Shown: positions 81 through 20,035 of the stretch, in pieces | Numbering within the stretch: the stretch's first letter is position 1 | How the letters are laid out: each line of letters starts with the position of its first letter | DNA from: a virus | Length of the DNA stretch: 64,000 nucleotides | Virus record (IMG/VR): IMGVR_UViG_3300042544_003795 | Coordinates: 32,001-96,000 of that record | Reading direction: 5' to 3' (one strand) | Program-made: the position numbers and the translations under genes | The notes under the pieces: model-generated | The model's database searches: none | What the model was told of the DNA's origin: nothing | Seen by the model: the letters and a program-made list of their open reading frames with translations, nothing else

Positions 81-584
81 ATGAACACCACTACTCTATC
101 TCACTCCGCTTTCCTTTCCATGCTTCAGGGAAAGCTTGGCGCTCTCATTATTGGGCTTGAAACCATCACTTCTCCTGAAGTGAAAAAGGGCGGTCCAGCC
201 CATGTTCAAAAATACTCCAAAGGGAGGATTGTGGTCGGCGCATCCTACGCCAAAGCCGTCCGCGCACAAGGGGGGGAAGGCTTTGAGTCTTCTTCCCTTC
301 CATGGGGGGAATGGCTGATTTCAAAGAAGGTAGTCACTCACAAGGGGGAATTTTATCTGGCCCATGTTCGCCGGAACAGTCCTCCCCTTAAATCGTTTTT
401 CACCTCACAAGGTGAAATAATAGACAAGGCTGATATCAAGCCTTTCCTAAGAAAAGTGTACGAGAACAAGCGCCAAGCTGAAGCAGGGGTGACGGGAAAA
501 AAGCAGGTTGATTTCAAGCTGATAAAATTCAGTTCTATAAAAACCATAAAATACGGGGGGAGAACTTTTGAACTAGTCTCATAA
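81..584 (+). CDS. Hypothetical early protein, paralogue of 14733..15239
   Basis: Shares LPWGEW/LPYGEY and AGVTGKKQV motifs with 14733..15239; TTGCGT...TATAAT promoter just upstream. Confidence 0.85.
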   Translation: MNTTTLSHSAFLSMLQGKLGALIIGLETITSPEVKKGGPAHVQKYSKGRIVVGASYAKAVRAQGGEGFESSSLPWGEWLISKKVVTHKGEFYLAHVRRNSPPLKSFFTSQGEIIDKADIKPFLRKVYENKRQAEAGVTGKKQVDFKLIKFSSIKTIKYGGRTFELVS

Positions 585-660: not shown

Positions 661-980
661 CATAATCGCTATTAAGCGCCATAGCTCTTCGAAGTTGTAG
701 AATAACCATAAGAGCCGTAGCGGCTGAAAGCCGCATAATCGCTATTAAGCGCTATAGCTCTTCGAAGTTGTAGAATAACCATAAGAGCCGTAGCGGCTGA
801 AAGCCGCATATTCTCTATTACGCGCCATAGCTCTTCGAAGTTGTAGAATAACCATAAGAGCCGTAGCGGCTGAAAGCCGCATATTCTCTATTACGCGCCA
901 TAGCTCTTCGAAGTTGTAGAATAACCATAAGAGCCGTAGCGGCTGAAAGCCGCATATTCTCTATTACGCTCCATAACCCT
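661..980. repeat. Tandem array 1: 73-bp unit x4 plus partial
   Basis: Units start at 661, 734, 807, 880, 953; CATAATCGCTATTAAGCGCCATAGCTCTTCGAAGTTGTAGAATAACCATAAGAGCCGTAGCGGCTGAAAGCCG. Confidence 0.97.
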
Positions 981-1073
981 TGGAACTTTTACAATAAGGA
1001 TTTCCCCTAGTCACGCTTAAGGTGAATAAGAGAGTGACGCACTATGAACGATTACGCCACTCTCTCATTCTTT

Positions 1074-1277
1074 TTAACTTGCTTGACGTTTCCTTAGTTC
1101 GTCAGCAAATGTCATGCCTTGGTCCCTGTAGTAGTTCTCATTATTGGGGGCTGGCAATGTCGCCATTGCTTCCGCCGCCAAGCGGCAATCCATTACAACC
1201 CAATTGAGGCTTTCAATTGAGAGAGTCTTGGCTTTAGCTTTCCAATAAATGAAGTCTAGTGACGTGGCTTGTTTCAT
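1074..1277 (-). CDS. Hypothetical protein, paralogue of 16818..17027
   Basis: ATSxDFI-W-KAKTLS...ENYYxDQGxTFADEL shared. Confidence 0.85.
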   Translation of the reverse strand: MKQATSLDFIYWKAKAKTLSIESLNWVVMDCRLAAEAMATLPAPNNENYYRDQGMTFADELRKRQAS

Positions 1278-1567
1278 GACACCTCATTATAACTCATTCG
1301 TTGTAACCTGCAAATGTTTTTTTCAATTACTTTAGTTTTTTTTACCATAGCAAATCTCATGCCAAGTAAAACATTTTTTCTGTCAAGCAAAAAAAATCCC
1401 TTACACGCTAGTAGAGGAATCCCCTAGGCGGCGCCCCCGGCTAGGGGATTTCCCTATGATAGCTTAAGGTATTTTTTAGTTGACACGCAAATGAGTAATG
1501 CGTGTTACACCATGCGCCATGTTACACCGTGCGACATGTTACACCATGCCGCACATGTTACACCATA

Positions 1568-1753
1568 CTAGGATATCCAATATAATGTGCCGTTTACTGT
1601 CATTGAGCCGTCCCACCACTCATATCCTAGATACCTATTGTTAACGCGAAGAGAGCAAAAGTCTTGGCCCCTACGGCCCACAATGCGGGTCACAGGAGAG
1701 GCACCCCACATGGTGGGGATGGAGTATTCGTTCCGGAAAAGGTTAGGTTTCAT
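1568..1753 (-). CDS. Small cassette protein (61 aa), paralogue of 2095..2286
   Basis: IPTMWG..VTR.V.RRGQD.C...EWWDG shared; start set from upstream TTGCGT-N17-TAGAGT. Confidence 0.8.
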   Translation of the reverse strand: MKPNLFRNEYSIPTMWGASPVTRIVGRRGQDFCSLRVNNRYLGYEWWDGSMTVNGTLYWIS

Positions 1754-2094
1754 AGAACCCCACTCTACAGCCGTTCCTTGAATCACGCAAGTGAATTTTT
1801 CTAATTGTTTTCATTTTTCTTGGCGTGCCAATGCATGTTACACCATGCACTATGTTACACCATACGCTATGTTACACCATGCACCATGTTACACCATACG
1901 CCATGTTTTTCGTCAAGTAAAAAAATTCCTTACGAGCTAGTAGAGGAATCCCCTAGCCGGGGCCGCCGCCTAGGGGATTCCCTTATGATTGCTTAGGGTA
2001 TTTTTTAGTTGACACGCAAATGCGCAATGCGTGTTACACCATGCCGCATGTTACACCATGCCGCATGTTACACCATGCGGCATGTTACACCTTG

Positions 2095-2286
2095 TTATCT
2101 GATGGTGTACATCTGTCCAAATATGGACATGGTGCCATCCCACCATTCCATGGCTATAAATATGCCACCAACATGAAGCTCGCAGTAATCTTGCCCCCGG
2201 CGGTTGACTACCCTAGTCACACGGGAAAGAGGACCCCACATGGTGGGGATAGGATGGAGTTGTGATCTGAATAGTCGTGGTATCAT
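2095..2286 (-). CDS. Small cassette protein, paralogue of 1568..1753
   Basis: Sequence similarity; own promoter. Confidence 0.8.
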   Translation of the reverse strand: MIPRLFRSQLHPIPTMWGPLSRVTRVVNRRGQDYCELHVGGIFIAMEWWDGTMSIFGQMYTIR

Positions 2287-2629
2287 AGGACTTCAATATA
2301 CCACATGCCTTGAGAGACGCAAGCGAATTTTTCTAATTGTTTTCATTTTTCTTGGCGTGCCTATGCATGTTACACCATGCACTATGTTACACCATACGCT
2401 ATGTTACACCATGCATCATGTTACACCATACGCCATGTTTTTCGTCAAGTAAAAAAATTCCTTACGAGCTAGTAGAGGAATCCCCTAGCCGGGGCCGCCG
2501 CCTAGGGGATTACCCTATAATCGCTTAGGGTATTTTTTAGTTGACACGCGAATGCGCAATAACTGTTACACCATGCGCTATGTTACACCGTGCGGCATGT
2601 TACACCATGCCGCATGTTACACCATGCTC

Positions 2630-2965
2630 TTAATAATCCATTTCGACTTCGAATAGTTCGAACATCCATGGGAGACGACTCGCGCCATCATCCCATACGC
2701 TATCGCAACGCATGTTGCGAAAAAACTCGTCAGTACTTTCGTACTTGTGTATTATACCATGATGTTCCGTTAGGAACCAGTGAATTTCCTCGTCTCCCCA
2801 GTATTCTCCCACTTCGTCATCCAAGAATGTATATACTTCATCCTGAGTGACAGGATCAGAGTCTTCCATTGCCATTTGAAGCGCTATAACTATCTGCGCT
2901 TCAATCGTCTTCTCAGACGATAGGTTGATCAAGCTGAGATAAGGATGGTTACTGTTGTTTATCAT
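2630..2965 (-). CDS. Acidic hypothetical cassette protein, related to 4158..4421
   Basis: QMAMEDSD/QMAYEDDD and KYxxTxEF(F/L) similarity; own promoter. Confidence 0.8.
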   Translation of the reverse strand: MINNSNHPYLSLINLSSEKTIEAQIVIALQMAMEDSDPVTQDEVYTFLDDEVGEYWGDEEIHWFLTEHHGIIHKYESTDEFFRNMRCDSVWDDGASRLPWMFELFEVEMDY

Positions 2966-3291
2966 CGGACCTCACTATACATCCGTTCCTTGAATCACGC
3001 AAGTGAATTTTTCTAATTGTTTTCATTTTTCTTGGCGTGCCAACGCATGTTACACCATGCACCATGTTACACCATGCACCATGTTACACCATGCGGCATG
3101 TTTTCTGTCAAGCAAAAAAATCCCTTACGCGCTAGTAGAGGAATCCCCTAGCCGAGCCCGCCGCCTAGGGGATTACCCTATAATCGCTTAGGGTATTTTT
3201 TAGTTGACACGCAAATGCGCAATGCGTGTTACACCATGCGCCATGTTACACCGTGCGACATGTTACACCATGCCGCACATGTTACACCACC

Positions 3292-3522
3292 CTAGGACAT
3301 CCTGTATATTCGACACTCAAAGTTTGACCCTATGGTGTCCCACACCATGTACATTTTCCCGCTTTCCATCAGACCGATAAATCGGCCTTCCGCCGTCCAC
3401 ATGTTCAGATTTACATCTCCCGGTCTTTTGACTCTGAAATGTGGCTGGTCAATTGACCAGCAGGAGACTGTGGACGACCATGTGCGAAAAGAAGGACGGT
3501 TGGCAGTAGTTGTGTTGCTCAT
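3292..3522 (-). CDS. Small cassette protein
   Basis: ORF fills the space between repeat blocks; same promoter as neighbours. Confidence 0.75.
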   Translation of the reverse strand: MSNTTTANRPSFRTWSSTVSCWSIDQPHFRVKRPGDVNLNMWTAEGRFIGLMESGKMYMVWDTIGSNFECRIYRMS

Positions 3523-3798
3523 AGGACTTCACTATACATCCGTTCCTTGAATCACGCAAGCGAATTTTTTTAATTGTTTTCTTTTTTCTTGGCGTGCCAA
3601 TGCATGTTACACCATGCACCATGTTACACCATACGCTATGTTACACCATGCACCATGTTACACCATACGCCATGTTTTTCGTCAAGTGAAAAAACACCTG
3701 ATGCGCTAGTAGAGGAATCCACTAGGCGACGGGCCCGGCTAGGGGATTCCCCTATGGCCTCTTAAGGGATTCCCCTAAGTTATAAAAACCAGCATCCC

Positions 3799-4131
3799 TA
3801 TAATCTCTATTAAGCGCTATAGCTCTTCGAAGTCGTAGAGTAGCTATAAGAGCCATAGCGGCTGAAAGCCGCATAATCGCTATTAAGCACTATAGCTCTT
3901 CGAAGTCGTAGAGTAGCTATAAGAGCCATAGCGGCTGAAAGCCGCATAATCGCTATTAAGCGCCATAGCTCTTCGAAGTCGTAGAGTAGCTATAAGAGCC
4001 ATAGCGGCTGAAAGCCGCATAATCGCTATTAAGCGCCATAGCTCTTCGAAGTTGTAGAATAACCATAAGAGCCGTAGCGGCTGAAAGCCGCATAATCGCT
4101 ATTAAGCGCTATAGCTCTTCGAAGTCGTAGA
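3799..4131. repeat. Tandem array 2: 73-bp unit x4 plus partial
   Basis: Same unit as 661-980 with variant GTCGTAGAGTAGCTATAAG. Confidence 0.97.
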
Positions 4132-4157
4132 AAATCTATAATGAATGTTACATCATC

Positions 4158-4421
4158 TTAAGAGTCGTAAAACTCTTTTAGAAATTTCTCCGGAGTTTCT
4201 TTGTATTTTTTATAAATCCTGCGGTCGTCTAAGACGCATAAAATTTCCTCGTGACAGATATATTCTCTTATATCCAATAGATAATAAAAGACCTCCCACA
4301 TTTGGACTTGATCATCGTCCTCATATGCCATTTGCACAACAATCTCCAAATCCGCAAAAGCTTCTTCGAGATTGTTCAAAGAACACTGCTGGAGGTAGGG
4401 GTTCTTATTGGTGTTCATCAT
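4158..4421 (-). CDS. Acidic hypothetical protein
   Basis: Start moved to ATG behind TTGCGT...TATGTT; related to 2630..2965. Confidence 0.75.
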   Translation of the reverse strand: MMNTNKNPYLQQCSLNNLEEAFADLEIVVQMAYEDDDQVQMWEVFYYLLDIREYICHEEILCVLDDRRIYKKYKETPEKFLKEFYDS

Positions 4422-4741
4422 CAGGTCACAACATACAGCCGACTCTCTAATCACGCAAGAGTTTTTTTCAATCGTTTTTGTTTTTTTTAGCGCAGTAATA
4501 CATGTTACACCATGCTACATGTTATATCATGGTACCCTAACCGTTAGTAAGGGATTCCCCTACGCGGCGTCCCCGTCTAGGGGATTCCTCTATGGAACGC
4601 TAAGGGAATTTTTTAGTTGACACGCAAATGCGCAATCCGTGTTACACCATGTCATATGTTACACCATGCGACGCGCCAAGATAAATGAAATAAATCGAAA
4701 ATATCCGTTGCGTCTTTCGCGGCCTGTGTTATAGTAAGGAC

Positions 4742-4948
4742 ATGAAAGAAACCCACTATCTCCTATCTGGCCTAAAACCCACAGGCGAGCACCTCGCCCT
4801 TTGGGCTTTAGAGTCCATAGTTAAGCTGTCCCGCCTCCACGGTCATCCCTTAGAAAGACCGGAAGCCACGGAGTGGCTGTCACAGTCTACAGAAAAGTCT
4901 CTTGACCGAGACTGGGTAGAATGGCGATTAGATGGCATCTTTGACTAA
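4742..4948 (+). CDS. Hypothetical cassette protein
   Basis: Directly behind conserved promoter. Confidence 0.75.
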   Translation: MKETHYLLSGLKPTGEHLALWALESIVKLSRLHGHPLERPEATEWLSQSTEKSLDRDWVEWRLDGIFD

Positions 4949-5031
4949 GGTGCTATCTCCCTCCCTTAAAAAGTTAAAAATAATCAAAAGGAACTCGACA
5001 CACCCCGAGTTCTATGGTAAACTCCTATACT

Positions 5032-5556
5032 ATGAAATCTCTACTCTTTATAGCCTTTATCTGTTTCACAGCTTTTGCTTATGGCATCTCTTCACCGAGT
5101 GTCAATGGTAAAAGGTTTGTCCCTGACTATTTTCAGATTGCGCTTGACGGCGTAAAGAGTTTTGAGGGTTTCAGAGAGAAGCCATATAAATGTCCGGCGG
5201 GAGTGCGGACTATAGGATACGGCTTTACTGGCCCTTTAGCTAAGGTTAAAAATATCAGTAAAGAAGACGCAGATCTTCTCTTGACTAAAGAGCTTCACCA
5301 ATATGTCTTGACTGTTGAAGATAATGTGAAAGTCCCCTTGACCCGCAATCAGCTTTATGCACTGGCCAGTTTCACATACAACTGCGGAGAAGGAAACCTT
5401 CGCCAGCTTGTCAACGGAAAAAATAGGCTAAACTCCGGAAACTATAAATCAGTTGAGAGGTTGTTACCTAAGTATCGTAAAGGCGGCGGGAAGGTTCTGA
5501 AAGGATTGCAAAAGAGGCGGGAGTGGGAAGTTAAGCTGTGGAAAGGTGAGCTTTAA
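5032..5556 (+). CDS. Phage lysozyme (GH24) with N-terminal signal peptide
   Basis: FEGFREKPYKCPAGVRTIGYG catalytic motif, ALASFTYNCG, GLQKRREWE; hydrophobic N-terminus ending AFAYG. Confidence 0.93.
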   Translation: MKSLLFIAFICFTAFAYGISSPSVNGKRFVPDYFQIALDGVKSFEGFREKPYKCPAGVRTIGYGFTGPLAKVKNISKEDADLLLTKELHQYVLTVEDNVKVPLTRNQLYALASFTYNCGEGNLRQLVNGKNRLNSGNYKSVERLLPKYRKGGGKVLKGLQKRREWEVKLWKGEL

Positions 5557-5764
5557 AAGTCAAGCGCCGCCTCCCCCTAAGGGGGAGTAGGGGATTCCCC
5601 TACGCGGCGTCCCCGGCTAGGGGATTCCCTTATGGTCGCTTAGGGGAATTTTTCGCTTGACCCATAAAAACGCAATAGTTGTTACACCATACGACGCGCA
5701 AAAATAAACGAAAACAATTGAAAATATCCGTTGCGTTCCTCACTGCATGTGATATAATGAAATC

Positions 5765-6037
5765 GTGAAACTTGACTCTCTTATCGCCCAGCTCGAAGCT
5801 CTCAAGGCCATGTACGGCCCAGACATAGAGGTCGCCTTCAAGGCGGCGTCAGAAACACAAAGTACGCCAATCACAAGCGCCGCCTTCAATTTCGAGGAGG
5901 CAACCAGAGATTGGATTATATCCCTAGCCTCGGAGGTCGAAGAGGATGAATGCGACTATTCCGGCGAATGGGACGAAGCAGAAAACGACTACGAGAGGAG
6001 AATGGAGGGATGGATGGACTCCAGAGGGGAGGAGTAG
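5765..6037 (+). CDS. Acidic hypothetical cassette protein
   Basis: GTG start 6 nt after TATAAT; D/E-rich C-terminus. Confidence 0.8.
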   Translation: MKLDSLIAQLEALKAMYGPDIEVAFKAASETQSTPITSAAFNFEEATRDWIISLASEVEEDECDYSGEWDEAENDYERRMEGWMDSRGEE

Positions 6038-6251
6038 TCAAGGGAAAAAATCTAAGAACCCCCCTAAGAGGGGGTAGGGGATTCCCCTACGCGGCGTCCC
6101 CGGCTAGGGGATTCCCCTATGGTACGATAAGGGAATTTTTTAGTTGACTCTCAAATGCGCAATACATGTTACACCATGCGGCGAGCCAAGATATATGAAA
6201 TAAATCGAAAATATCCGTTGCATTTTTTCCTCCCTGTGATATACTGATTAC

Positions 6252-6479
6252 ATGAGTTTACCACATCTTAAGTATATACATTTATCACGATTCGATAAAT
6301 TGGACTTCTTGATTAACAATTGCGGCGAAGGTTTTGTTAAAGAGTGCACTCTCTTGACCGAATTAGTCGGGTACATGTCTGACTCCGACTTTTCTGATTT
6401 CTTTGATAAAATCTGCCGTGAGTGGGGTATTGAGGTATCAGAAGAAATCTGCTGGGATTGGGAGACTGAAGGAGTCTAA
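6252..6479 (+). CDS. Small acidic protein, paralogue of 10355..10549
   Basis: KLDFLI.NC.E.FVKEC.LLTELVGYMSDSDFSDFFDK.CREW in both. Confidence 0.85.
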   Translation: MSLPHLKYIHLSRFDKLDFLINNCGEGFVKECTLLTELVGYMSDSDFSDFFDKICREWGIEVSEEICWDWETEGV

Positions 6480-6699
6480 GGGGAGACGATTAGAAAGTCA
6501 AGAAAACAACTCCCCTAAGGGGGAGTAGGGGATTCCCCTACGCGGCGTCCCCGGCTAGGGGATTCCCCTATGGTACGATAAGGGAATTTTTAGTTGACTC
6601 ATAAATGCGCAATGCGTGTTACACCATCCCACGACAAAAAAAAGAAAAAGAATTGAAAATATCCGTTGCTTTCCTGAAACGCTGGACTATAGTCAAGAC

Positions 6700-7113
6700 A
6701 TGACTCTTCAATCACCACCCGCTATCATCAAAGTTCCTTCCAACGTCTTGGCCGATGCCATGATCAACCGCTACTTCATCGCTGGCTTCCTGAACTGTTC
6801 AGAAGAGCAAATCTCTGACTGGGATATCAACTGGGAGAAAGGACACCTTTCTGTCACCTTTATCCCTGAATCCGATTTTTGGGGAGACTCTCTCAGGGAG
6901 TACCTCAACATAGAGTTCCAGCTTTTCGGAGAGGACATAGAAGGAAACGTCTGGGAGTTTCCCAACTCAGACAGAGTTCTAGAGTGGTTCTCTCTAGAGA
7001 AGAAAGGCCCCATGGGATCATGGAACGCGGGAGTAGCGGCTCACAAAGACAGCATGGAATGGGTGTGCTGGATGATAGCAAATAGCAAGGACGGCCTACT
7101 GAAAGATATGTAA
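6700..7113 (+). CDS. Hypothetical cassette protein
   Basis: ATG 6 nt after TATAGT; the 6616 start in the track lies within repeat DNA. Confidence 0.8.
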   Translation: MTLQSPPAIIKVPSNVLADAMINRYFIAGFLNCSEEQISDWDINWEKGHLSVTFIPESDFWGDSLREYLNIEFQLFGEDIEGNVWEFPNSDRVLEWFSLEKKGPMGSWNAGVAAHKDSMEWVCWMIANSKDGLLKDM

Positions 7114-7337
7114 AGTTGTTACACCAAGCAAGTCAAATAAAAAACTCCCCTAAGGGGGAGTAGGGGATTCCCCTACGCGGCGTCCCCGGCTAGGGGATTC
7201 CCCTATGGTCGCTTAGGGGAATTTTTATGTTGACTCATGAAAAAATAATTCATGTTACACCATCGCCTCCAAAGAAAAAGAAAAACAATTCAAAATATCC
7301 GTTGACTCTCTCTTGGCTTGTGTTATAGTATGGGACT

Positions 7338-7541
7338 ATGAATACCCTATATGTTGTCGAGGCCGAGTCCGGAGTTCACCACGGGAATTGCGAGCTAGGA
7401 GTGGGCCTAAGCCGCGCCGCCGCCATATGTGATGCCTACGGCCCCGGAGGTAAGCTCCCCCGCCATGCGTGGGTCAATATCGTCTCCCGCGAAAAGGAGC
7501 CGAAAAGGTTCGAGCGCCTAAAGGCTCAAAATGGCCTTTAG
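7338..7541 (+). CDS. Hypothetical cassette protein
   Basis: Behind TTGACT-N16-TATAGT. Confidence 0.75.
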   Translation: MNTLYVVEAESGVHHGNCELGVGLSRAAAICDAYGPGGKLPRHAWVNIVSREKEPKRFERLKAQNGL

Positions 7542-7659
7542 TGTCAAGCGAAAAACACCCCTAGGACACCCTAGGGGATTTCCCTACGCGGGGACGCCGC
7601 CTAGGGGATTCCTCTATGATTGCTTAGGGGATTTGCCTAGGGTATAAAAACCATCATTC

Positions 7660-7915
7660 CTATAATCACTATTAAGGTAAATAGCTCTTCGAAGTTGTAT
7701 AATCACTATTAAAGGCTATAGCTCTTCGAAGTTGTAGAATATCCATAAGAGCCGTAGCGGCTGAAAGCCGCATATTCTCTATTACGCGCCATAGCTCTTC
7801 GAAGTTGTAGAATACCCATAAGAGCCGTAGCGGCTGAAAGCCGCATATTCTCTATTACGCGCCATAGCTCTTCGAAGTTGTATAATAACTATTAAGAGCT
7901 ATAACCCTTCAAACT
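7660..7915. repeat. Tandem array 3: ~37-bp monomers plus two 73-bp units
   Basis: Same core as arrays 1 and 2. Confidence 0.93.
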
Positions 7916-7917
7916 TT

Positions 7918-8244
7918 TCAAATCAATCCCTTCACAATTAACCATGAAGGAGAACCATAACTATCCGTTCCGTCAGGTTCAACCGTTTCACCTAGGATAG
8001 ACTTGCAATTGCCGTTACTGTCCCATCGTGATAGACTTGACACAGAAGGTTCCTTCTTCCCTAGCATTTTAATAGCCGTACCATTGGAGATTTTAAACTC
8101 TGACTCTGAACCGTACACTTTGACACGAGGACGATGACCGATAGCAGTCTCTTCCCATCTAATAGAGAATTTGTTCCCCGCTTTCAGGACACTGCCGTCT
8201 TTCATTTTGATTTCAGTTTTATTGATAAATGAGTGAGTTTTCAT
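7918..8244 (-). CDS. Hypothetical phage protein
   Basis: C-terminal VEPDG...SPSWL motif; own promoter. Confidence 0.8.
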   Translation of the reverse strand: MKTHSFINKTEIKMKDGSVLKAGNKFSIRWEETAIGHRPRVKVYGSESEFKISNGTAIKMLGKKEPSVSSLSRWDSNGNCKSILGETVEPDGTDSYGSPSWLIVKGLI

Positions 8245-8301
8245 GTATTCAGTTTACCACACGGTTTTCAGATAGCAAAAAGTATTTTCAATTATTTTGT
8301 T

Positions 8302-8601
8302 TTATTGATAAAAGAAATTTTTGGCCCTCATCACAAGAGAAAGATATTGTGAGATTCTGATATGATGAAAAAGTCCACGATCAGGAGATTTTAAATAACC
8401 TTTAATTCCACCGTACTTAGCTATTGACTTATCCGGGTTACGTGGTGGATACAACGGGTTACCCTTGCCTTCTATCTGACCCCAGATATCTACTGTATCG
8501 CCCCACACGGCGGCAGTCAGTCGGATAGTTCCACCCTGTAGTGATGGAACCGTTAGGGTGACGTGATATGGGTGAAGGCCGGGTTGCAATTCAGGTTTCA
8601 T
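8302..8601 (-). CDS. Hypothetical protein
   Basis: ORF coupled to 8604..8846. Confidence 0.7.
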   Translation of the reverse strand: MKPELQPGLHPYHVTLTVPSLQGGTIRLTAAVWGDTVDIWGQIEGKGNPLYPPRNPDKSIAKYGGIKGYLKSPDRGLFHHIRISQYLSLVMRAKNFFYQ

Positions 8602-8603
8602 TT

Positions 8604-8846
8604 TTAGTCGCTGAGAAGTTCATCTCTTTCCTCATTGTAAATAGACAAACATGAAGGCCTTTCAAAATCAATATCGCCTAACGATAAATCGCCTAAAGAG
8701 ACTTTTTTCCATTCTACGTTGTCAAGCGTATAATGAAAAACGTCCCACTTGACATAGCAATCTTTGACTTGATCCCAGCTATCGACTGGAATATCGACAT
8801 CTGTTGAAGAGCCAACCGAATAAGACGCATCAATTGTGATTTTCAT
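8604..8846 (-). CDS. Acidic hypothetical protein, paralogue of 9927..10175
   Basis: SY.V.SS..(V/I)D(I/L)P...KD...HY(T/S)L...W shared. Confidence 0.8.
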   Translation of the reverse strand: MKITIDASYSVGSSTDVDIPVDSWDQVKDCYVKWDVFHYTLDNVEWKKVSLGDLSLGDIDFERPSCLSIYNEERDELLSD

Positions 8847-8976
8847 TTTATAATAAGTTAAGAACTAGTGAAAGCTAAACATCGCTTTCATGTGATTAGT
8901 ATATCACAGCCATCGAAAAACTCAACGGATATTTTTAATTCTTTTGATTTATTTTAAGAGTGTACTATACTAAAGC

Positions 8977-9153
8977 ATGAGCCTAGACAAAGCAATCGAA
9001 CACAATAAGGAGAAAAGAGCACCGTTCCGGAAAAGTAAACGCTTTGATAGAACTTGCCGCAATCATGGAAAGTGTCCATACTGTGAAGGGAACAGAACTT
9101 TTCAATCAGAAAAAGAACTTCAGAGAATAGAAAGCTTTGGAGAAGAAGAATAG
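8977..9153 (+). CDS. 58-aa Cys/His protein (not in ORF track)
   Basis: MSLDKAIEHNKEKR...DRTCRNHGKCPYCEGNR; TTGATT-N16-TATACT-N5-ATG. Confidence 0.8.
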   Translation: MSLDKAIEHNKEKRAPFRKSKRFDRTCRNHGKCPYCEGNRTFQSEKELQRIESFGEEE

Positions 9154-9337
9154 AGAATGTCAAGCACCGCCTCCCCTTAAGTGGGAATAGGGGATTACCC
9201 TATGCCTACCCCCCCGCATAGGGGATTCCCTTATAGTGTCTTAGGGTTGACTTGGCACGCCGCCTGCTTGTGTAAAGAAAATTGAAAACAATCGAAAATA
9301 TCCGTTGCAATCTAATACCCCTGTGACATAATAAAGC

Positions 9338-9577
9338 ATGAAACTATCTAAACTGATTAAGGTTTTGCAAAATGCGAAAAAAGAACTAGGGGACGTTCCT
9401 GTTATGGTGATGGATGAAGAAATGGGGAGTTGGGAATATCTCTCTGAGGTTCTCAAACTTCATCCTTATACTGGACCTTACGGGTGTATGGATAGAACCA
9501 AACCCGCAGATTCGATTGGCCTTGTTAGAAATAAAGGTTTCTCATCTAAAGACCTGCTACTAGGACAGAGAGATTAA
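9338..9577 (+). CDS. Hypothetical protein
   Basis: Behind conserved promoter. Confidence 0.8.
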   Translation: MKLSKLIKVLQNAKKELGDVPVMVMDEEMGSWEYLSEVLKLHPYTGPYGCMDRTKPADSIGLVRNKGFSSKDLLLGQRD

Positions 9578-9630
9578 AAAGAATTGAAAATATCCGTTGC
9601 ATCTATCCTAAAGTGTGATATAGTAAAGTC

Positions 9631-9909
9631 GTGAAAGATGATCTTCTTTACATACCTCGCCTTGCTGAACTTTACGATTGGTTTCGTATTGAGGAACAGA
9701 ATGGTGAGATGATTGCTTGCGGTGGAATATTTCCAGCTTATGAGATAAAGGCTGGCCAGCGATGGCAAGGTTCTAGTGGTCACACTGTTCTAGTCGATGA
9801 AGTGGATTCCTATTCAGTTCATTACTCATGGGACGAACAGGGAGTAAAGAAAACCCATAAAAAATCCCACTTCGCTTTCCAGTGCCGGTATTGTCTTGTT
9901 TTATCCTAA
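9631..9909 (+). CDS. Hypothetical protein
   Basis: GTG start 6 nt after TATAGT. Confidence 0.8.
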   Translation: MKDDLLYIPRLAELYDWFRIEEQNGEMIACGGIFPAYEIKAGQRWQGSSGHTVLVDEVDSYSVHYSWDEQGVKKTHKKSHFAFQCRYCLVLS

Positions 9910-9926
9910 TCTAACCTAATAACAAA

Positions 9927-10175
9927 ATGAAAGTTGAAATTGTCACATCATACAGAGTATTCTCATCTGCCTTTATCGACCTCCCTATTGAAAATATAAA
10001 GGAAATTAAAGATTACTTTATAATCGACAATGTTTTGCATTACTCATTGAAAGATGAAAAATGGGAAAAAATCACCTTGCCAGAGGGTGAGGATGAATTC
10101 GAAAAATCTAGTGAAGTGAAATTCTATAGTGCTGAGTCTCACCAAACAGTAATGAAAATGTCTAAGTCTATCTAA
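9927..10175 (+). CDS. Hypothetical protein, paralogue of 8604..8846
   Basis: Sequence similarity. Confidence 0.8.
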   Translation: MKVEIVTSYRVFSSAFIDLPIENIKEIKDYFIIDNVLHYSLKDEKWEKITLPEGEDEFEKSSEVKFYSAESHQTVMKMSKSI

Positions 10176-10354
10176 GTCAAGCTCCTCCTCCCCCTAAGGG
10201 GGAGTAGGGGATTCCCCTACGCGGCGTCCCCGGCTAGGGGATTCCCCTATAGCGTCTTAGGGTTGACTTGGCACGCCGCCTGCTTATGCAAAGAAAATTG
10301 AAAACAATTGAAAATATCCGTTGCTCTTTTCCTTCCCTGTGATATACTAATTAC

Positions 10355-10549
10355 ATGAGAACACGATTCGAAAAACTAGACTTCCTGATTGAAAATTGCA
10401 ACGAGACTTTTGTTAAAGAGTGCGTACTCTTGACCGAGCTCGTAGGCTATATGTCGGATTCCGACTTCTCCGACTTTTTTGACAAAGTTTGTAGGGAGTG
10501 GGACATTCGCATAGGACTTTATTGGGACAGTACAGAAGAAACTGAATAA
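10355..10549 (+). CDS. Small acidic protein, paralogue of 6252..6479
   Basis: Near-identical core and promoter. Confidence 0.85.
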   Translation: MRTRFEKLDFLIENCNETFVKECVLLTELVGYMSDSDFSDFFDKVCREWDIRIGLYWDSTEETE

Positions 10550-10769
10550 AAGTCAAGCGCCGCCTCCCCGAAAGGGGAGTAGGGGATTCCCCTACGCGGC
10601 GTCCCCGGCTAGGGGATTCCCCTAGGATGCTTTAGTAGATTACCCTAGGGTAGCTTAGGGTTGACAAATTTTTAGGCAAAGTTGGCACGCCTTCTGCTAT
10701 GCAAAGAAAAATGCAATTAATCGAAAGTATTTGTTGATTGATTGCTTAATAGGGTTATTGTGTGGGACT

Positions 10770-11783
10770 ATGAATAAAGAAATTGCATCTTGCTTCTCCT
10801 CCGTCGTTGGCCAATCCCAGATTGTCGCCAATCGTATCCTGTCCCATAGCGCCTTCGCTGCGGGCAATAATTCGCCCTATAGCGTTTGTTACACCGGAGC
10901 TGCGGGCTTAGGTAAAACTCAATTGCTCCGCGCGGAGTTAGCGGCCCGCGCCATGGCAATCCAGATTCGATTTGGACGTGAAGCCAATGTTTTCATGCTC
11001 CGGTCACCTCAGGAAATCCGCCTTGCTGGCGAGGCATTCTTTGAGTTTATCGGCAATGTCTCGGACGGTGACGGCGTTGTTATCGACGAGCTTCATGAGA
11101 TTGAAATCTCGTCTACCGTTCAACTCCGGAAACTTAAGCTCATCTTGAAGGGCTTGCTTGACAACGGGCAAGGCAAAATCCGTTCCGTGAAGATTGACGA
11201 TGATACGGTCATCTCCCGGCCTAAAGAGGAAATCTTTTTCGCCGCTGGCACTAACTTCCCAGAGAAAATCAAGGACGGTTCCGCCATCATCTCCCGGTTT
11301 GGTGGAGAGACGCCGCTGGACCTTTATACAGAGGATGAATTGACCAAAATTCTTAAACTCATGAGTGAGTCCGCCGGGCTTCGTGTGAACGAGAATACGC
11401 TTCTCCTTCTCGCCAAGTGTGGCCGTGGAACTGCCCGCCCACTAGAATCAATCGTTAGCTACCTTAGCAAAGTAGCATCAATCTCAGAGAAGACGACTAT
11501 CAATCGCGCGGAGGCACTAGAGGCAATGCGGGCTTTGAGTTTGTTTCCCCTTGGCGTTTCAAAGCGGGAAATCTCAATCCTTATCCGCAGCAAGGGCCAA
11601 GGCTTAGCGGTCAGAATGTTGCCAGTGATTTTTGCCGTCGAGCCGAAATCAGTCAATCAAAGCGTTAGCTTTCTTTGTGCTTATGGCTTCCTCAGCCTAC
11701 GGGGCGGAGTTGTCAATCTGTCCCCTCGCGGCGCGGCCTACTTGGACCAGTTAAAGGCTGAAAAGTTCTCTTTAGAATCCTAG
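10770..11783 (+). CDS. Divergent RuvB-like AAA+ ATPase
   Basis: VVGQ, Walker A GAAGLGKT, Walker B IDELH, AGTN, SRFG arginine finger, RGTAR, C-terminal LSPRG (cf. RuvB RGTPR and TPRGR). Confidence 0.85.
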   Translation: MNKEIASCFSSVVGQSQIVANRILSHSAFAAGNNSPYSVCYTGAAGLGKTQLLRAELAARAMAIQIRFGREANVFMLRSPQEIRLAGEAFFEFIGNVSDGDGVVIDELHEIEISSTVQLRKLKLILKGLLDNGQGKIRSVKIDDDTVISRPKEEIFFAAGTNFPEKIKDGSAIISRFGGETPLDLYTEDELTKILKLMSESAGLRVNENTLLLLAKCGRGTARPLESIVSYLSKVASISEKTTINRAEALEAMRALSLFPLGVSKREISILIRSKGQGLAVRMLPVIFAVEPKSVNQSVSFLCAYGFLSLRGGVVNLSPRGAAYLDQLKAEKFSLES

Positions 11784-11822
11784 GCCTTTTATCCCTCCCT
11801 TCTTTCTTACCTTACTTACCTT

Positions 11823-12149
11823 ATGAATGTTTCAATCTCCTACTCGCCATCGTCTCTCTCAGATTTTCTCGCCGCTTTGGAAGCGGTAAAAGGCATGAAC
11901 GGGAAAAGCGTTTCCGTTTCGCCAGCTTCTCTGAACTGTCCTGTTTCAAAGTACGTAGAAAAAACTGGAGCTTCCCGTTACCGTCGCACTCCGGAAGGTT
12001 GCCAATCCGGGCTTTCTAATTTGGACGACCTGAAAAAGCGGGCTTTGCTAGGCGACGCCATAGCGGCAGAATGTCTAGGCGACGAAATCCCGGAAAGTGA
12101 TTCTGAGTTGTCAAGCGAAGATAATTCGCCGATTGAAGCGATTTTCTAA
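11823..12149 (+). CDS. Hypothetical protein downstream of RuvB-like gene
   Basis: ORF followed by a terminator. Confidence 0.7.
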   Translation: MNVSISYSPSSLSDFLAALEAVKGMNGKSVSVSPASLNCPVSKYVEKTGASRYRRTPEGCQSGLSNLDDLKKRALLGDAIAAECLGDEIPESDSELSSEDNSPIEAIF

Positions 12150-12159
12150 TTGACAGGAA

Positions 12160-12191
12160 AGGGCGGCTGATTTTCAGCCGCTCTTTTTTTT
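12160..12191 (+). terminator. Rho-independent terminator
   Basis: GGGCGGCTGA-TTT-TCAGCCGCTC then T-tract. Confidence 0.8.
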
Positions 12192-12365
12192 GCATTGTCA
12201 ACCCTTAATCTACCCTAGAGGAATCCATTAGAGCACCCTAGGGGAATCCCCTAGCCGGGGACGCCGCGTAGGGGAATCCCCTAGTAAGGCCTAAGGTTTA
12301 CATCTTAATGAAACATAATACACCTTATTCATCCCCCCCCCATAAGGGGGAGGTATTTTGATATG

Positions 12366-13064
12366 TTACACCTGCACCACGAAACCAGAGTTGTCTTTTC
12401 TGGCTTTGCCTTTATCGACAAGCCCAACCACCACGCCCCTAGTGTCGAGGAAACGAAGGTCATTCTTGTCACCGTTCACAACCGGCGTTCCATGCCAGCT
12501 CTCGGGCAGTGAGCGACGGAAAACAACCGCCACGTTTCCACCTCGTGAGCGGATGGCGTGAACGTGCCGCTCGTTTGACTCACTGCGGGAGAATGTCAAA
12601 CTGTAGTTGGCGGGCATTTTCCCGTCGAGAAAATCCATCATGCGTTTGTACCCCTTGGTGTAATCGTACCAAGTAACCTCAGGGAAAAGCTCGAACAAGT
12701 TTTTCCCGTCCTGAACGTCGAGCGATTCCCACGGGATATCGCTGGTAAGGTTAAGCCGGATGGCCAACCGCATCCCATTTTTCTTGGCTTTCTTAATAGC
12801 CGCTTGAATTTCCTTAATTAGTTGTTTAGAGAATAGGTCAAAATTCTCCTTCAAGAGTTTAGTCTTGGCGATTCTAGCCGCTTGAACCGTCGAGAATGCA
12901 CCATGGCCTGAGGTGTTTAAACAGGAGAAGGTGCAACCACGGCTCGCCCAAGTGCATACGTTATAACCCGACAGATTGGCGGGAGCCAAATGGATGCCGA
13001 GAGTCGTCCAGCCTTCCTTCGTGCCCTTCATGATTTTTGCGTTCGCCGTAGTGAGTAATTTCAT
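12366..13064 (-). CDS. Gp88-family phage protein
   Basis: LAPA...NVC..AS.GC...CLNTSG, RLNLTSDI, YDYTK, YSLTFS, GDKNDLRFLD. Confidence 0.8.
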   Translation of the reverse strand: MKLLTTANAKIMKGTKEGWTTLGIHLAPANLSGYNVCTWASRGCTFSCLNTSGHGAFSTVQAARIAKTKLLKENFDLFSKQLIKEIQAAIKKAKKNGMRLAIRLNLTSDIPWESLDVQDGKNLFELFPEVTWYDYTKGYKRMMDFLDGKMPANYSLTFSRSESNERHVHAIRSRGGNVAVVFRRSLPESWHGTPVVNGDKNDLRFLDTRGVVVGLVDKGKARKDNSGFVVQV

Positions 13065-13419
13065 CGTTCACTATAATAGCCCGCTTTCCACCGATTGCAA
13101 ATTTATTTTCGATTAATTCTACTTTTCTCACATAGCGGATAGCGTGCCAAGTCAACCCTTAATCAACCCTAGGGGAATCCATTAGAGCACCCTAGGGAAA
13201 TCCCCTAGCCGGGGCCGCCGCATAGGGGAATCCCCTAGTAGTCGTTAAGGTTAAAATTTACTTGACTTTTTAATATGCCTATCACCCCTAATAGGGTTTT
13301 ATAGTAAATATAAAGTATTGAAAAATGCAATGCTCTCTATGGATATTATAGTGGGCACTGAGATTGCGGAGACTATGGAGAGTATGGCAATAATAGTTAT
13401 AGCCGCCATAAATAGCGTG

Positions 13420-13835
13420 CCCGCCTTATTAAGCGCCAAACCTCTTCGAAGTTGCAGCGCCACCTCCGCCCGCCTTATTAAGCGCCAAACCTCTTCGAAG
13501 TTGCAGCGCCACCTCCGCCCGCCTTATTAAGCGCTAAACCTCTTCGAAGTTGCAGCGCCACCTCCGCCCGCCTTATTAAGCGCTAAACCTCTTCGAAGTT
13601 GCAGCGCCACCTCCGCCCGCCTTATTAAGCACCAAACCTCTTCGAAGTTGCAGCGCCACCTCCGCCCGCCTTATTAAGCGCTAAACCTCTTCGAAGTTGC
13701 AGCGCCACCTCCGCCCGCCTTATTAAGCACCAAACCTCTTCGAAGTTGCAGCGCCACCTCCGCCCGCCTTATTAAGCGCTAAACCTCTTCGAAGTTGCTA
13801 ACGCCCCTTATTAAGGACGTTAGCTCTTCGAACTT
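13420..13835. repeat. Tandem array 4: 49-bp unit x about 8
   Basis: CCCGCCTTATTAAGCGCCAAACCTCTTCGAAGTTGCAGCGCCACCTCCG. Confidence 0.97.
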
Positions 13836-13838
13836 ACC

Positions 13839-14138
13839 TCACATTCTTTCGTTACATTTGATACGGCTTACATATTTTGGGCCATCATTGTAATAGACCT
13901 GTAAGTCTTCTAATAGCTCCTGTAGAGTCTCATCAATTGATTCGTAGCTTTCTCGCTCAATAAATCCAGATATCAGAAAGCCGACATTACAATGACTCCC
14001 AAAAGCAATAAAACTTTTACTTTTATAAATTTCAAAATCATGCCATTCTCCTTCATTATCTTGAAACTCTATAATGCCAACATAACTGTCTTTTTCTTTT
14101 TGATAAGCTTCAAATATTTCAGTGATTTCGGTTTGCAT
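13839..14138 (-). CDS. Acidic hypothetical protein
   Basis: TTGACC-N17-TATACT promoter, CAACAACAA leader. Confidence 0.8.
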   Translation of the reverse strand: MQTEITEIFEAYQKEKDSYVGIIEFQDNEGEWHDFEIYKSKSFIAFGSHCNVGFLISGFIERESYESIDETLQELLEDLQVYYNDGPKYVSRIKCNERM

Positions 14139-14673: not shown

Positions 14674-14732
14674 AGTAAATCAATATACCACAGAACAAAA
14701 GGAGGGTCAAGAAAAAAACTAAACTATTTTAA

Positions 14733-18092: not shown

Positions 18093-18184
18093 ATTGTTAT
18101 ATTATGTTATTAAGGGCTGAAACTCTTGCAACTTTATTTTTTTATTATTAAGTAAAAATCTCTTCGAAGTTAATATTATTGTTA

Positions 18185-18457: not shown

Positions 18458-18495
18458 TTTTTATTATTAAGTAAAAATCTCTTCGAAGTTGAATA

Positions 18496-18816
18496 TTAAC
18501 CCTTCTTACCTCCAAATAAAGCTGCATCTGGACCGTTGTCAAATGAAATTTCATCCCCAGTCCTCAAGGCTTCGTCAAAACTTTGCTGATCAGGAAGAAG
18601 TTCCGCTGGCTCAGATTGCATCTGAGGACCCTGTGTTTCATACATCATATTATTATTAATTGTGTTATTAACGATCTCTTTCTCTTGGAAGTTGTAAGAA
18701 TAAAACAAAGTATATTTCTTATCAGGAAGCCGGGATTCAATACTATAAATCCAAACTAAAGAACAAGACTGAGAAATCAAAAGGAATACTATTGCTGATT
18801 GTTTTAATGTAAACAT
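18496..18816 (-). CDS. Hypothetical membrane-anchored protein
   Basis: N-terminal hydrophobic segment. Confidence 0.65.
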   Translation of the reverse strand: MFTLKQSAIVFLLISQSCSLVWIYSIESRLPDKKYTLFYSYNFQEKEIVNNTINNNMMYETQGPQMQSEPAELLPDQQSFDEALRTGDEISFDNGPDAALFGGKKG

Positions 18817-19932: not shown

Positions 19933-20035
19933 AAAATCTGGTAGCTATTTACTCCTTACACCAAATTAGAAAAATAACGATGACTAATAGTAAGAATATC
20001 ATTATCTCTTATTAAGTAAAAACAACTCTTGCAAC

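What the first reader, a model, noticed from the sequence alone, without database searches (positions are those of the whole stretch)
661..13835. Four co-oriented tandem arrays built on one motif (TATTAAG-N7/8-CTCTTCGAAGTT) that also occurs singly before start codons
Seen: 73-bp arrays at 661, 3799 and 7660 and a 49-bp array at 13420 share only this core. The 73-mer is a degenerate dimer of ~36-37 bp halves, and free monomers occur in array 3. Each half ends in a mini-palindrome (CTTCGAAG or GCGGCTGAAAGCCGC). All arrays point the same way and sit just past the stop of a minus-strand gene. Single copies or variants lie upstream of minus-strand ATGs near 18110, 18150, 18465 and 20010. Inference: a binding site for a phage protein (polymerase, sigma factor or DNA translocase) amplified into loading platforms, for example genome-entry signals as in T5 first-step transfer, or centromere-like sites.
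Basis: partly seen in the sequence, partly recalled or inferred. Interest (0 to 1): 0.8.

Follow-up and report, generated by a model that had tools for sequence, protein, structure and literature searches.

The report
Polar two-box motif amplified into arrays
An uncultured lake phage and its relatives keep one strictly one-directional, two-part DNA signal both singly between small early genes and in tandem arrays just behind certain genes; selection clearly preserves it, so it is almost certainly a protein docking site that controls transcription, but whether it starts or stops transcription is untested.

Summary
Four tandem arrays (661-997, 3800-4131, 7661-7916, 13419-13835) and five single sites (18.1-20.0 kb) share one motif. 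On the minus (coding) strand it reads AACTTCGAAGAG-N7/8-CTTAATA. All copies have the same polarity, none is expected by chance, and all lie in one 19.4-kb block of the roughly 84 kb I could examine.

New evidence comes from 25 related metagenome loci (70-92% nucleotide identity). They keep arrays at the same places. Both boxes and their spacing are near-invariant (box 1 2.6% and box 2 0.3% mismatch, against 21-25% in the flanks). The spacer, the filler and the unit length (35-74 bp) drift freely. So each unit is a selected, independent, asymmetric recognition site.

Read on the minus strand, each array lies after the stop of a minus-strand gene (1-31 nt after it for three arrays, 85 nt for array 1) and before a palindrome. 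That placement is odd for promoters.

My best reading (0.35) is a stoperator-like, polar protein barrier or operator. Tandem alternative-sigma promoters are a close rival (0.28); the phage does encode a small sigma-like protein.

The T5 injection-stop, origin and centromere readings gained no support. The scan had noted this feature before only on this same genome, not on other DNA.

The parts
661..1000 (-). Array 1. Five units in minus sense (box 1 starts at 988, 915, 842, 769, 696) with a 73-bp period. The gene-proximal unit is degenerate (AAGTTCCAAGGG). It lies between the convergent genes 81-584 (+) and 1074-1277 (-).
3800..4131 (-). Array 2. Five 73-bp units. Four have box 1 as GACTTCGAAGAG; one is of the array-1 type. 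The array starts 31 nt after the stop of gene 4158-4454 (-).
7661..7916 (-). Array 3. It holds a degenerate 37-bp unit, two 73-bp units and two 37-bp monomers. It starts 1 nt after the stop of gene 7918-8244 (-). In minus sense it is followed by a palindrome and a terminator-like hairpin at 7577-7558.
13419..13835 (-). Array 4. One 39-bp unit plus eight 49-bp units. Box 1 of the first unit starts 3 nt after the stop of the 99-aa gene 13839-14138 (-).
13797..13830 (-). The first unit of array 4 folds into a 12-bp hairpin with box 2 in the loop (-22.6 kcal/mol, z = -5.1). The same sequence is kept in relatives L049-L052.
18465..18490 (-). Single site A, AACTTCGAAGAG-N7-CTTAATA. It lies 5 nt after the stop of gene 18496-18816 and 7 nt before the ATG of gene 18185-18457, with no Shine-Dalgarno sequence.
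18146..18171 (-). Single site B, 13 nt after the stop of gene 18185-18457. In relative L049 the same site lies 15 nt upstream of a canonical TTGACT-N16-TATAAT promoter.
18108..18133 (-). Single site B', a variant (AAGTTGCAAGAG-N8-CTTAATA) 15 nt before the ATG of gene 17604-18092.
20010..20035 (-). Single site C, a variant (CAGTTGCAAGAG-N9-CTTAATA). It lies about 100 nt downstream of a TTGACA-N16-TAGACT promoter-like site and 77 nt before the ATG at 19932. It is conserved in L064 and L087.
18666..18693 (-). Single site D, a variant (AACTTCCAAGAG-N10-TTAATA) inside ORF 18496-18816. It is conserved in relatives.
13290..13418 (.). Conserved non-coding stretch directly behind array 4. It is open as a 36/42-aa frame in all relatives but shows no coding-type substitution pattern and no convincing conserved RNA structure.
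13160..13240 (.). GGGGATTCCCCTAG-type double palindrome that follows array 4 in minus sense. Equivalent elements follow arrays 2 (about 3700-3790) and 3 (about 7550-7650), and a smaller hairpin follows array 1 (about 605-645).

Best explanation
The motif is the asymmetric, two-box DNA recognition site (AACTTCGAAGAG, then 7-8 bp, then CTTAATA) of one sequence-specific protein. That protein acts in a polar way on minus-strand transcription in the phage's early/accessory gene block.

Single sites lie in the short gaps between co-directional small genes, right after a stop codon and at or just upstream of the next gene's start or promoter. There the bound protein would switch off or uncouple the downstream gene.

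The arrays are the same site repeated 4-12 times between the stop of a minus-strand gene and a palindromic terminator. There many bound copies would form a reinforced one-way barrier or insulator at the end of that transcription unit. This works like the operators and 'stoperators' of the mycobacteriophage L5 repressor, but in tandem.

Shown here: the sites exist, are strictly polar, are confined to one block, and are kept by selection as independent units of fixed internal geometry.

Inferred: that a protein binds them, that it blocks rather than starts transcription, and which protein it is.
For: (1) Selection acts on the unit. In 89 distinct array units from the window and relatives, both boxes carry about 2 bits per position and the box-to-box offset is identical in 89/89. 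Nothing after box 2 is conserved. In relatives whose flanks are only 74-80% identical, box 1 differs at 42/1596 positions and box 2 at 2/798.

(2) Units within one array can differ in spacer and length (37, 39 and 49 bp in L049-L052) yet keep the boxes. Concerted evolution alone therefore cannot explain the conservation.

(3) Periods of 35-74 bp share no helical phase. A 35-bp period leaves about 4 bp between the roughly 31-bp conserved elements. That suits many small, independently bound proteins better than several RNA polymerases.

(4) In minus sense the order is stop codon, array, palindrome or terminator for all four arrays. A scanned terminator at 7577-7558 follows array 3.

(5) Arrays of three or more repeat cores (this motif or the 17-mer) occur at 9 of 13 junctions flanked by a minus-strand gene and at 0 of 10 +/+ junctions (Fisher p = 0.0016).

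(6) In L049, site B lies 13 nt after a stop codon and 15 nt upstream of a complete TTGACT-N16-TATAAT promoter, so the next gene does not need the motif as its promoter.

(7) In the arrays the bases downstream of box 2, where the rest of a -10 element and the start site would lie, are not conserved.

(8) The lone motif has no RNA structure (-1.3 kcal/mol, z = +1.1), so it acts as a DNA-level or single-strand signal.

(9) Precedent: asymmetric sites at promoters and in short intergenic gaps, with orientation tied to transcription direction, bound by a two-domain monomer (PMC9283540).
Against: - No repressor-like or other DNA-binding gene was recognised among about 30 proteins of 1-22 kb, and the rest of the genome could not be searched.
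- No tandem stoperator arrays are known.
- Intrinsic terminator-like palindromes already follow the arrays, so a barrier looks redundant.
- No copies in the opposite sense guard the + strand genes of the same block, unlike L5, where sites follow both transcription directions.
- Site A (and the site in L082) sits 6-8 nt before an ATG without any other obvious promoter. That is the geometry of the leaderless sigma-70-type promoters in this region and favours the promoter rival.
- The junction statistic is inflated by paralogy among cassette scaffolds.
Confidence: 0.35

Rival explanations
1. The motif is a complete promoter for an alternative (phage-encoded or host ECF-like) sigma factor. Single copies drive small leaderless genes. 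The arrays are tandem promoters that fire short transcripts towards the palindrome, or capture and hold the holoenzyme as a loading platform or sink.
For: - Two boxes at fixed spacing with sigma-like geometry. AAC lies about 33 nt and TAATA about 12 nt upstream of the ATG at site A, and AACTT-N16/17-TAATA resembles the ECF-type layout (own knowledge of ECF promoters).
- Box 2 lies 6-8 nt before an ATG with no Shine-Dalgarno sequence at site A, its L049 orthologue and L082.
- The -10 boxes of this region's sigma-70-like promoters keep the same distance: 5-9 nt at genes starting at 1277, 7338, 9338, 13064, 14673 and 17027.
- The simple scan itself scores site B as TTAACT-N18-AATAAT.
- The phage encodes a 150-aa sigma-family protein. 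Its Sigma70_r2 score is 19.4 bits, below the 24-bit cut-off. The AlphaFold model has pLDDT 85. The sigma-2 domain matches at Z 11-12.5 with rmsd about 2 A over about 89 residues, and whole-model alignments reach region 4 of sigma B, sigma S and sigma 70.
Against: - The motif is absent from the other 64 kb examined, including 44 kb of minus-strand operons, so it is not a general middle or late promoter.
- The arrays lie upstream of terminator-like palindromes rather than of genes, and two of the four point into convergent genes.
- Units only 35-39 bp apart cannot hold several polymerases at once.
- The stretch behind array 4 shows neither a coding signature nor a conserved RNA structure.
- In L049, site B precedes a full sigma-70 promoter.
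- Nothing links the sigma gene, about 53 kb away, to this motif.
Confidence: 0.28
2. The motif works in RNA. It is the binding site of a translational regulator on minus-strand mRNAs. It overlaps the ribosome landing zone at single sites and is repeated in 3' untranslated regions, where the arrays act as a sponge for that regulator. This is CsrA/CsrB-like logic, or a T4 RegA-like operator.
For: - Every copy is in the mRNA sense of the neighbouring minus-strand genes.
- The arrays lie between a stop codon and a terminator, that is, in 3'-UTR position.
- Sites A and B' end 7 and 15 nt before start codons that lack a Shine-Dalgarno sequence.
- The motif is unstructured as RNA, which would suit single-strand recognition.
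Against: - Site C is 77 nt and site B 53 nt from the next start codon.
- Box 1 contains an 8-bp DNA palindrome (CTTCGAAG), and its variant keeps a palindromic hexamer (TTGCAA), which is more typical of duplex DNA recognition.
- No RNA-binding regulator has been linked to it.
- I know of no phage precedent for such a sponge (own knowledge, not searched).
Confidence: 0.1
3. The arrays are DNA-transaction platforms: replication-origin iterons, partition centromeres, packaging or recombination sites, or a T5-like injection-stop signal. Their polarity reflects the direction of replication, packaging or DNA entry.
For: - All copies, and also the 41 copies of the unrelated 17-mer core, share one polarity across a block whose cargo genes point both ways. 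This is what a genome-scale polar process would give.
- The block resembles an early host-takeover region of small genes, each with its own promoter, as next to T5's repeat regions.
- Contig L043 joins array 1 to array 2 and lacks the 3.2 kb between them. The two arrays share only a 108-nt exact stretch, less than the assembler's k of 141, so this is probably a real recombinant.
- A RuvB-like AAA+ motor is encoded 1.6 kb from array 4.
Against: - No DnaA boxes lie within 1-37 kb (6 in the window against 8.1 expected, all beyond 37 kb).
- No initiator, ParA/ParB or terminase was recognised in the block.
- Unit periods share no phase, unlike iterons or parC/parS arrays.
- The single sites sit exactly in the gaps between genes, which such models do not explain.
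- The genome termini are unknown.
Confidence: 0.12
4. The arrays are selfish or neutral satellite expansions of an intergenic signal by replication slippage and unequal crossing-over. Only the single copies are functional.
For: - Copy number differs among near-identical contigs: array 4 has 9, 7 or more, 5 or 4 units, and array 1 has 4, 3 or 2.
- Edge units are degenerate.
- Contigs often break in the arrays.
Against: - Arrays persist at the same two loci in at least 12 diverged relatives.
- The boxes are at least 97% conserved while the spacers, filler and unit length diverge, even between units of one array. Neutral arrays would not keep only the boxes.
Confidence: 0.1

Closest known systems
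Operators and stoperators of cluster A mycobacteriophage repressors (L5 gp71, TipsytheTRex repressor; PMC9283540)
   Same: Both are asymmetric sites that occur at promoters and in short gaps between genes. In both, polarity is tied to the direction of transcription, and recognition by two separate DNA-binding parts is plausible for a two-box site.
   Different: Here the site is bipartite (12 + 7 bp, 7-8 bp apart) rather than a 13-mer. It is confined to one 19.4-kb block instead of spread over the genome. It is found in one sense only, is amplified into tandem arrays of 4-12, and no cognate repressor has been identified.
Alternative-sigma (ECF-type) and phage-specific bipartite promoters
   Same: Two conserved boxes at fixed spacing, an AAC-containing upstream box, an AT-rich downstream box at -10 distance from a leaderless start codon, and a sigma-like gene in the phage.
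   Different: Box 1 is 12 nt long and partly palindromic. The arrays lie in front of terminators rather than genes. The motif is missing from most of the genome examined. I know of no tandem arrays of 5-12 promoters at 35-74-bp spacing (own knowledge, not an exhaustive search).
Untranslated repeat regions and injection stop signal in the terminal repeat of phage T5 (bioRxiv 10.1101/866236)
   Same: Blocks of direct repeats (T5 has nine DRD copies) and palindromes lie among small early genes. They are better conserved among relatives than the neighbouring ORFs.
   Different: T5's conserved core is a set of eight DnaA boxes within inverted repeats, and none is present here. Location in a terminal repeat and the presence of the A1/A2/dmp genes could not be tested. 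T5's repeats do not recur singly before start codons.
Iteron, centromere and operator arrays of plasmids and phage-plasmids (P1 incC/incA iterons, R1 parC, omega-repressor heptads of pSM19035; own knowledge)
   Same: Direct repeats of one protein-binding site are gathered into several arrays that can titrate or assemble many copies of a protein, sometimes doubling as operators.
   Different: Those arrays have short, regularly phased units next to their rep or par genes. Here the unit length is free (35-74 bp), and no rep or par gene was found nearby.

Membership tests
Stoperator/operator system of cluster A mycobacteriophages | Asymmetric (non-palindromic overall) binding site | tested here: met
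   The two different boxes occur in a fixed order, and all 25 core copies plus the variants have one polarity.
Stoperator/operator system of cluster A mycobacteriophages | More than 20 sites dispersed through the whole genome, in both transcription directions | tested here: not met
   The sites are confined to 0.66-20.04 kb of about 84 kb examined and occur in one sense only. None lies next to the + strand genes. The remaining roughly 85 kb of the contig was not available.
Stoperator/operator system of cluster A mycobacteriophages | Sites lie in short intergenic gaps and at promoters, oriented with transcription | tested here: met
   Single sites lie 5-13 nt after stop codons and 7-15 nt before starts of minus-strand genes (A, B, B'). 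The arrays start 1-31 nt after minus-strand stops for three arrays and 85 nt for array 1.
Stoperator/operator system of cluster A mycobacteriophages | Cognate immunity repressor (HTH plus stoperator domain) encoded by the phage | tested here: inconclusive
   No HTH or repressor family was found among about 30 proteins of 1-22 kb. The rest of the genome is not held.
Stoperator/operator system of cluster A mycobacteriophages | Orientation-dependent block of transcription elongation | not testable with these tools
   This needs reporter or RNA-seq experiments.
Sigma-dependent bipartite promoter | Two conserved elements at fixed spacing compatible with -35/-10 recognition | tested here: met
   The box 1 to box 2 offset is identical in 89/89 array units and one bp shorter in the main single sites. 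The AACTT-to-TAATA centre distance is 21-22 bp.
Sigma-dependent bipartite promoter | Located upstream of genes at a consistent distance from the transcript or ORF start | tested here: inconclusive
   The distance is 6-8 nt before the ATG at site A and in L082, but 15, 53 and 77 nt at B', B and C. The arrays face palindromes or terminators, not genes.
Sigma-dependent bipartite promoter | A cognate sigma factor is available | tested here: inconclusive
   A 150-aa sigma-family protein is encoded about 8 kb past the window end. Its Pfam score is below the cut-off, but the fold match to sigma-2 gives Z 11-12.5. Nothing ties it to this motif.
Sigma-dependent bipartite promoter | Transcription starts a few nt downstream of the -10-like box | not testable with these tools
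   No transcript data are available.
T5-type injection stop signal | Conserved set of DnaA boxes within inverted repeats | tested here: not met
   TTWTNCACA has 6 matches in the window against 8.1 expected, none below 37 kb. The definition is from bioRxiv 10.1101/866236.
T5-type injection stop signal | Location in a long terminal repeat next to the pre-early genes dmp, A1 and A2 | not testable with these tools
   The termini are unknown and the whole genome is not held.
Replication-origin iterons or partition centromere | Regularly phased short repeats next to an initiator or ParA/ParB gene | tested here: not met
   Periods of 35, 37, 39, 49, 57, 73 and 74 bp share no phase. No rep or par family was found in the block. 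The nearby AAA+ protein is RuvB-like, not initiator-like.
CRISPR array | Identical repeats separated by unique spacers | tested here: not met
   The filler between motifs is itself repeated within each array. No Rfam family matches the region.

The most novel reading that the evidence does not exclude
Two unrelated promoter-like or operator-like signals are each amplified into strictly co-oriented tandem arrays in the same slot of an integron-like cassette scaffold: this two-box motif and the 17-mer GGTGTAACATG. This happens only where the cargo gene runs on the minus strand. The arrays could then be a previously undescribed kind of phage regulatory device: multi-site protein traps (sigma, polymerase or repressor sponges, or one-way insulators) that manage transcription traffic between independently acquired early-gene cassettes. 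Their copy number would serve as a tunable dial.
Probability: 0.2. Interest if true: 0.75.

Novelty: new variant of a known kind. Interest (0 to 1): 0.5.

Why it matters
The motif is one of the clearest cases one can get from sequence alone of a non-coding phage signal under strong selection. About 19 near-invariant bases are kept in more than a hundred copies across relatives whose surrounding DNA has diverged by a quarter.

If the arrays are polar barriers or protein sponges, they would extend the stoperator idea beyond temperate actinophages to a large phage that likely infects a Gram-negative freshwater host. They would also show how a phage insulates a block of independently acquired early genes.

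If they are tandem promoters, they would define the target of a minimal phage sigma factor.

Either way the motif gives a ready bait (a three-unit array) for finding the protein. The variable copy number gives a natural dose series.

Tried and rejected
- Close relatives in reference collections. Megablast of 1-20 kb against 50,697 phage records found nothing. IMG/VR scans with a 16-mer and with two proteins gave only chance hits. The window's own genome and the record behind L039 are not held.
- Host regulon or prophage origin. The bipartite pattern has only 2 isolated hits in 596 Gb of prokaryote genomes and 7 unrelated single hits in metagenomes, both at chance level.
- A gene-plus-array module. 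The four genes ending at the arrays are unrelated to each other and have no Pfam family.
- A small protein driven by array 4. A 36/42-aa frame is open in all relatives, but variable sites split 6:9:6 over codon positions, and the synonymous/non-synonymous counts are no better than in off-frames.
- A structured RNA behind array 4. RNAalifold gives -8.9 kcal/mol with one compensatory pair in motif sense and -16.5 with three in the other sense. Array RNA folds are similar on both strands. There is no Rfam hit in 1-28 kb.
- Origin of replication. No DnaA boxes.
- CRISPR-like reading. Rejected because the 'spacers' are identical within an array.
- Sigma-70 promoters in the + sense. TAGAAT, TAGAGT or TATAAT follow box 1 in arrays 1-3 but not in array 4 or in several relatives, so this is not a shared feature.
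- Copy-number variation as evidence of function. Not used, because short-read assemblies can collapse arrays.

Full report
**What is there.** The window is part of a large uncultured lake phage. It carries six tRNAs and a tmRNA. Nearly all genes from 13.8 kb to 64 kb are on the minus strand. It is identical to part of a 169.8-kb metagenome contig. An outer-membrane beta-barrel gene suggests a Gram-negative host.

The first 13.3 kb has 40-49% G+C, against about 28-35% elsewhere. It is a block of small single-gene cassettes held in a stereotyped scaffold of GGGGATTCCCCTAG-type palindromes and 17-bp repeats.

The exact motif occurs 14 times against 0 expected. The 12-mer core, allowing one mismatch, occurs 25 times, always on the + strand, between 685 and 18693. 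Looser patterns add the TTGCAA variants at 18108-18133 and 20010-20035 and find nothing in the remaining 44 kb. The 10 kb upstream of the window (L039) and the 10 kb downstream (L093) hold no copy either. The motif is therefore local, not a genome-wide signal.

**Which strand to read.** The single sites lie among minus-strand genes. On that strand the motif reads AACTTCGAAGAG, 7 bp, CTTAATA.
- Site A starts 5 nt after one stop codon and ends 7 nt before the next ATG, with no Shine-Dalgarno sequence.
- Site B starts 13 nt after a stop codon.
- The variant B' ends 15 nt before an ATG.
- Site C lies in a leader, 77 nt before an ATG.
- Site D lies inside an ORF.

**Comparative evidence.** No relative exists in the phage reference set or in IMG/VR. 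Relatives were found by exact-protein look-ups, by homologues of the 99-aa gene next to array 4, and by one metagenome-wide scan for the bipartite pattern. Together these gave near-identical contigs from other samples and 25 related loci at 70-92% nucleotide identity.

Arrays sit at the same two places in these relatives, behind the 99-aa gene and behind the 95/108-aa gene. Their unit lengths are 35, 37, 39, 49, 57, 73 or 74 bp.

Across 89 distinct array units the consensus is CAACTTCGAAGAG.T.t.gc.cTTAATAa.g. Both boxes carry close to 2 bits per position, and the offset between them is identical in all 89 units. Nothing downstream of box 2 is conserved.

In relatives whose flanks are only 74-80% identical, box 1 deviates at 2.6% of positions and box 2 at 0.3%, while most spacer positions vary freely. 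Units inside one array in L049-L052 have six different spacers and three lengths, yet identical boxes. Array homogenisation therefore cannot account for the conservation. Selection acts on each unit, on the two boxes and on their spacing.

Every relative has all copies in one sense. The pattern has only chance-level hits in 596 Gb of prokaryote genomes, so it is not a host regulon site.

**Anatomy of the arrays.**
- The gene-proximal units are degenerate, as expected for array edges.
- The first unit of array 4 forms a strong hairpin right after the stop codon, and this is kept in relatives.
- A lone motif has no RNA structure.
- In minus sense the order is always stop codon, array, then a palindrome. 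Behind array 3 the scan also calls a terminator at 7577-7558.
- The scaffold has the same orientation whatever the direction of its cargo gene.
- The motif arrays occupy the slot that ordinary minus-strand cassettes fill with 3.5-4.4 copies of the 17-mer. Between + strand genes the 17-mer core occurs 0-2 times per junction.
- The 17-mer core GGTGTAAC is equally polar: 41 of 41 copies on the minus strand.
- Junctions with three or more repeat cores are 9 of 13 where a minus-strand gene is involved and 0 of 10 between + strand genes (p = 0.0016). Paralogy among scaffolds inflates this figure.
- The four genes ending at the arrays are unrelated to each other.

**Weighing the mechanisms.** The data say with some force that this is a polar, asymmetric recognition site used as an independent unit. 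They do not say what the bound factor does.

In favour of a promoter:
- the two-box geometry;
- the AAC-containing upstream box;
- the AT-rich box 6-8 nt before ATGs that lack a ribosome-binding site, the same distance seen at the region's sigma-70-type leaderless promoters;
- the presence of a small sigma-family gene about 8 kb beyond the window.

Against a promoter, at least for the arrays:
- they lie before terminator-like palindromes rather than genes;
- two of the four face convergent genes;
- units can be as close as 35 bp;
- the bases where the rest of a -10 element and the start site would lie are free to vary;
- the stretch behind array 4 is neither coding nor a convincingly structured RNA;
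- in L049, site B is followed by a complete canonical promoter for the next gene.

These points fit a protein that binds the site and acts on polymerase arriving from upstream. That is the logic of the operators and stoperators of cluster A mycobacteriophages: asymmetric sites at promoters and in short intergenic gaps work only in one orientation and are read by a two-domain monomer (PMC9283540).

I therefore place a stoperator-like barrier or operator first at 0.35 and tandem promoters second at 0.28. An RNA-level operator-and-sponge reading (0.10) is not excluded, because every copy is in mRNA sense and the arrays lie in 3'-UTR position.

T5's injection stop region is defined by DnaA boxes inside inverted repeats in the terminal repeat. 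There are no DnaA boxes here, and the termini are unknown. Iteron or centromere arrays are regularly phased and sit beside rep or par genes. Here the periods share no phase, and no such gene was recognised. These DNA-transaction readings keep 0.12 for two reasons. The whole scaffold is polar irrespective of cargo direction. And the arrays do recombine: contig L043 joins array 1 to array 2 and lacks the 3.2 kb between them, across a shared exact stretch of only 108 nt, shorter than that assembly's k of 141. A purely neutral satellite (0.10) is hard to square with box-only conservation.

**Limits.** No transcript, protein-binding or terminus data exist. About half of the phage genome could not be scanned. 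Copy numbers come from short-read assemblies. The link between the sigma-like protein and this motif is conjecture. Other first-stage notes on this same genome had flagged the arrays, the leaderless promoters and the sigma gene. I re-tested the parts I use. The scan has no record of the motif on other DNA.

Noticed in passing
window 10731-11783 (+): This 350-aa protein aligns over its full length to RuvB, the Holliday-junction branch-migration motor (E = 1e-10 to Thermus RuvB, residues 20-322). It sits inside the cassette block. In relative L049 its gene, together with its 111-aa neighbour, is inverted relative to the window.
   Followed up: partly
window 1503-7265 and 12372: The 17-mer core GGTGTAAC occurs 41 times, all on the minus strand, all within the cassette block. 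It forms arrays of 3.4-4.4 copies on both sides of minus-strand cargo genes, but occurs only 0-2 times between + strand genes.
   Followed up: partly
L093:1532-1984 (equivalent to window coordinates 71507-71959, minus strand, outside the window): A 150-aa sigma-family protein. Its Pfam Sigma70_r2 score is below the cut-off, but the AlphaFold model (pLDDT 85) matches sigma region 2 at Z 11-12.5. A short three-helix C-terminal part aligns towards region 4. Homologues of 50-89% identity exist in metagenomes.
   Followed up: partly
L043:2062-2176 versus window 661-775 and 4018-4132: One contig from another sample joins array 1 directly to array 2. It lacks the five minus-strand cassettes between them (window 776-4017). 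This is probably homologous recombination between the arrays.
   Followed up: partly
window 1286-1314, 7302-7329, 9305-9332, 13073-13100, 14682-14710, 17034-17062: Sigma-70-like promoters whose -10 box ends 5-9 nt before the ATG. Many small genes of the block therefore appear to be leaderless.
   Followed up: partly
window 13290-13418: A conserved stretch behind array 4 is open in frames on both strands in all relatives (36/42 aa and 35-41 aa), and the two frames share third codon positions. No coding signature was found. The invariant segments TTTTATAGTAAATATAAAGTATT and CTCT[CT]TATGGATATTA (+ sense) look like promoter elements pointing into the array.
   Followed up: partly
window 19042-19542 (-): A 166-aa protein with a sub-threshold match to the outer-membrane beta-barrel family (PF13505, E = 1e-4). 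This hints at a Gram-negative host.
   Followed up: no
window 20040-20850: An AT-rich stretch of about 800 bp without a convincing gene. It lies just upstream (minus sense) of a TTGACA-N16-TAGACT promoter-like site and of single site C.
   Followed up: no
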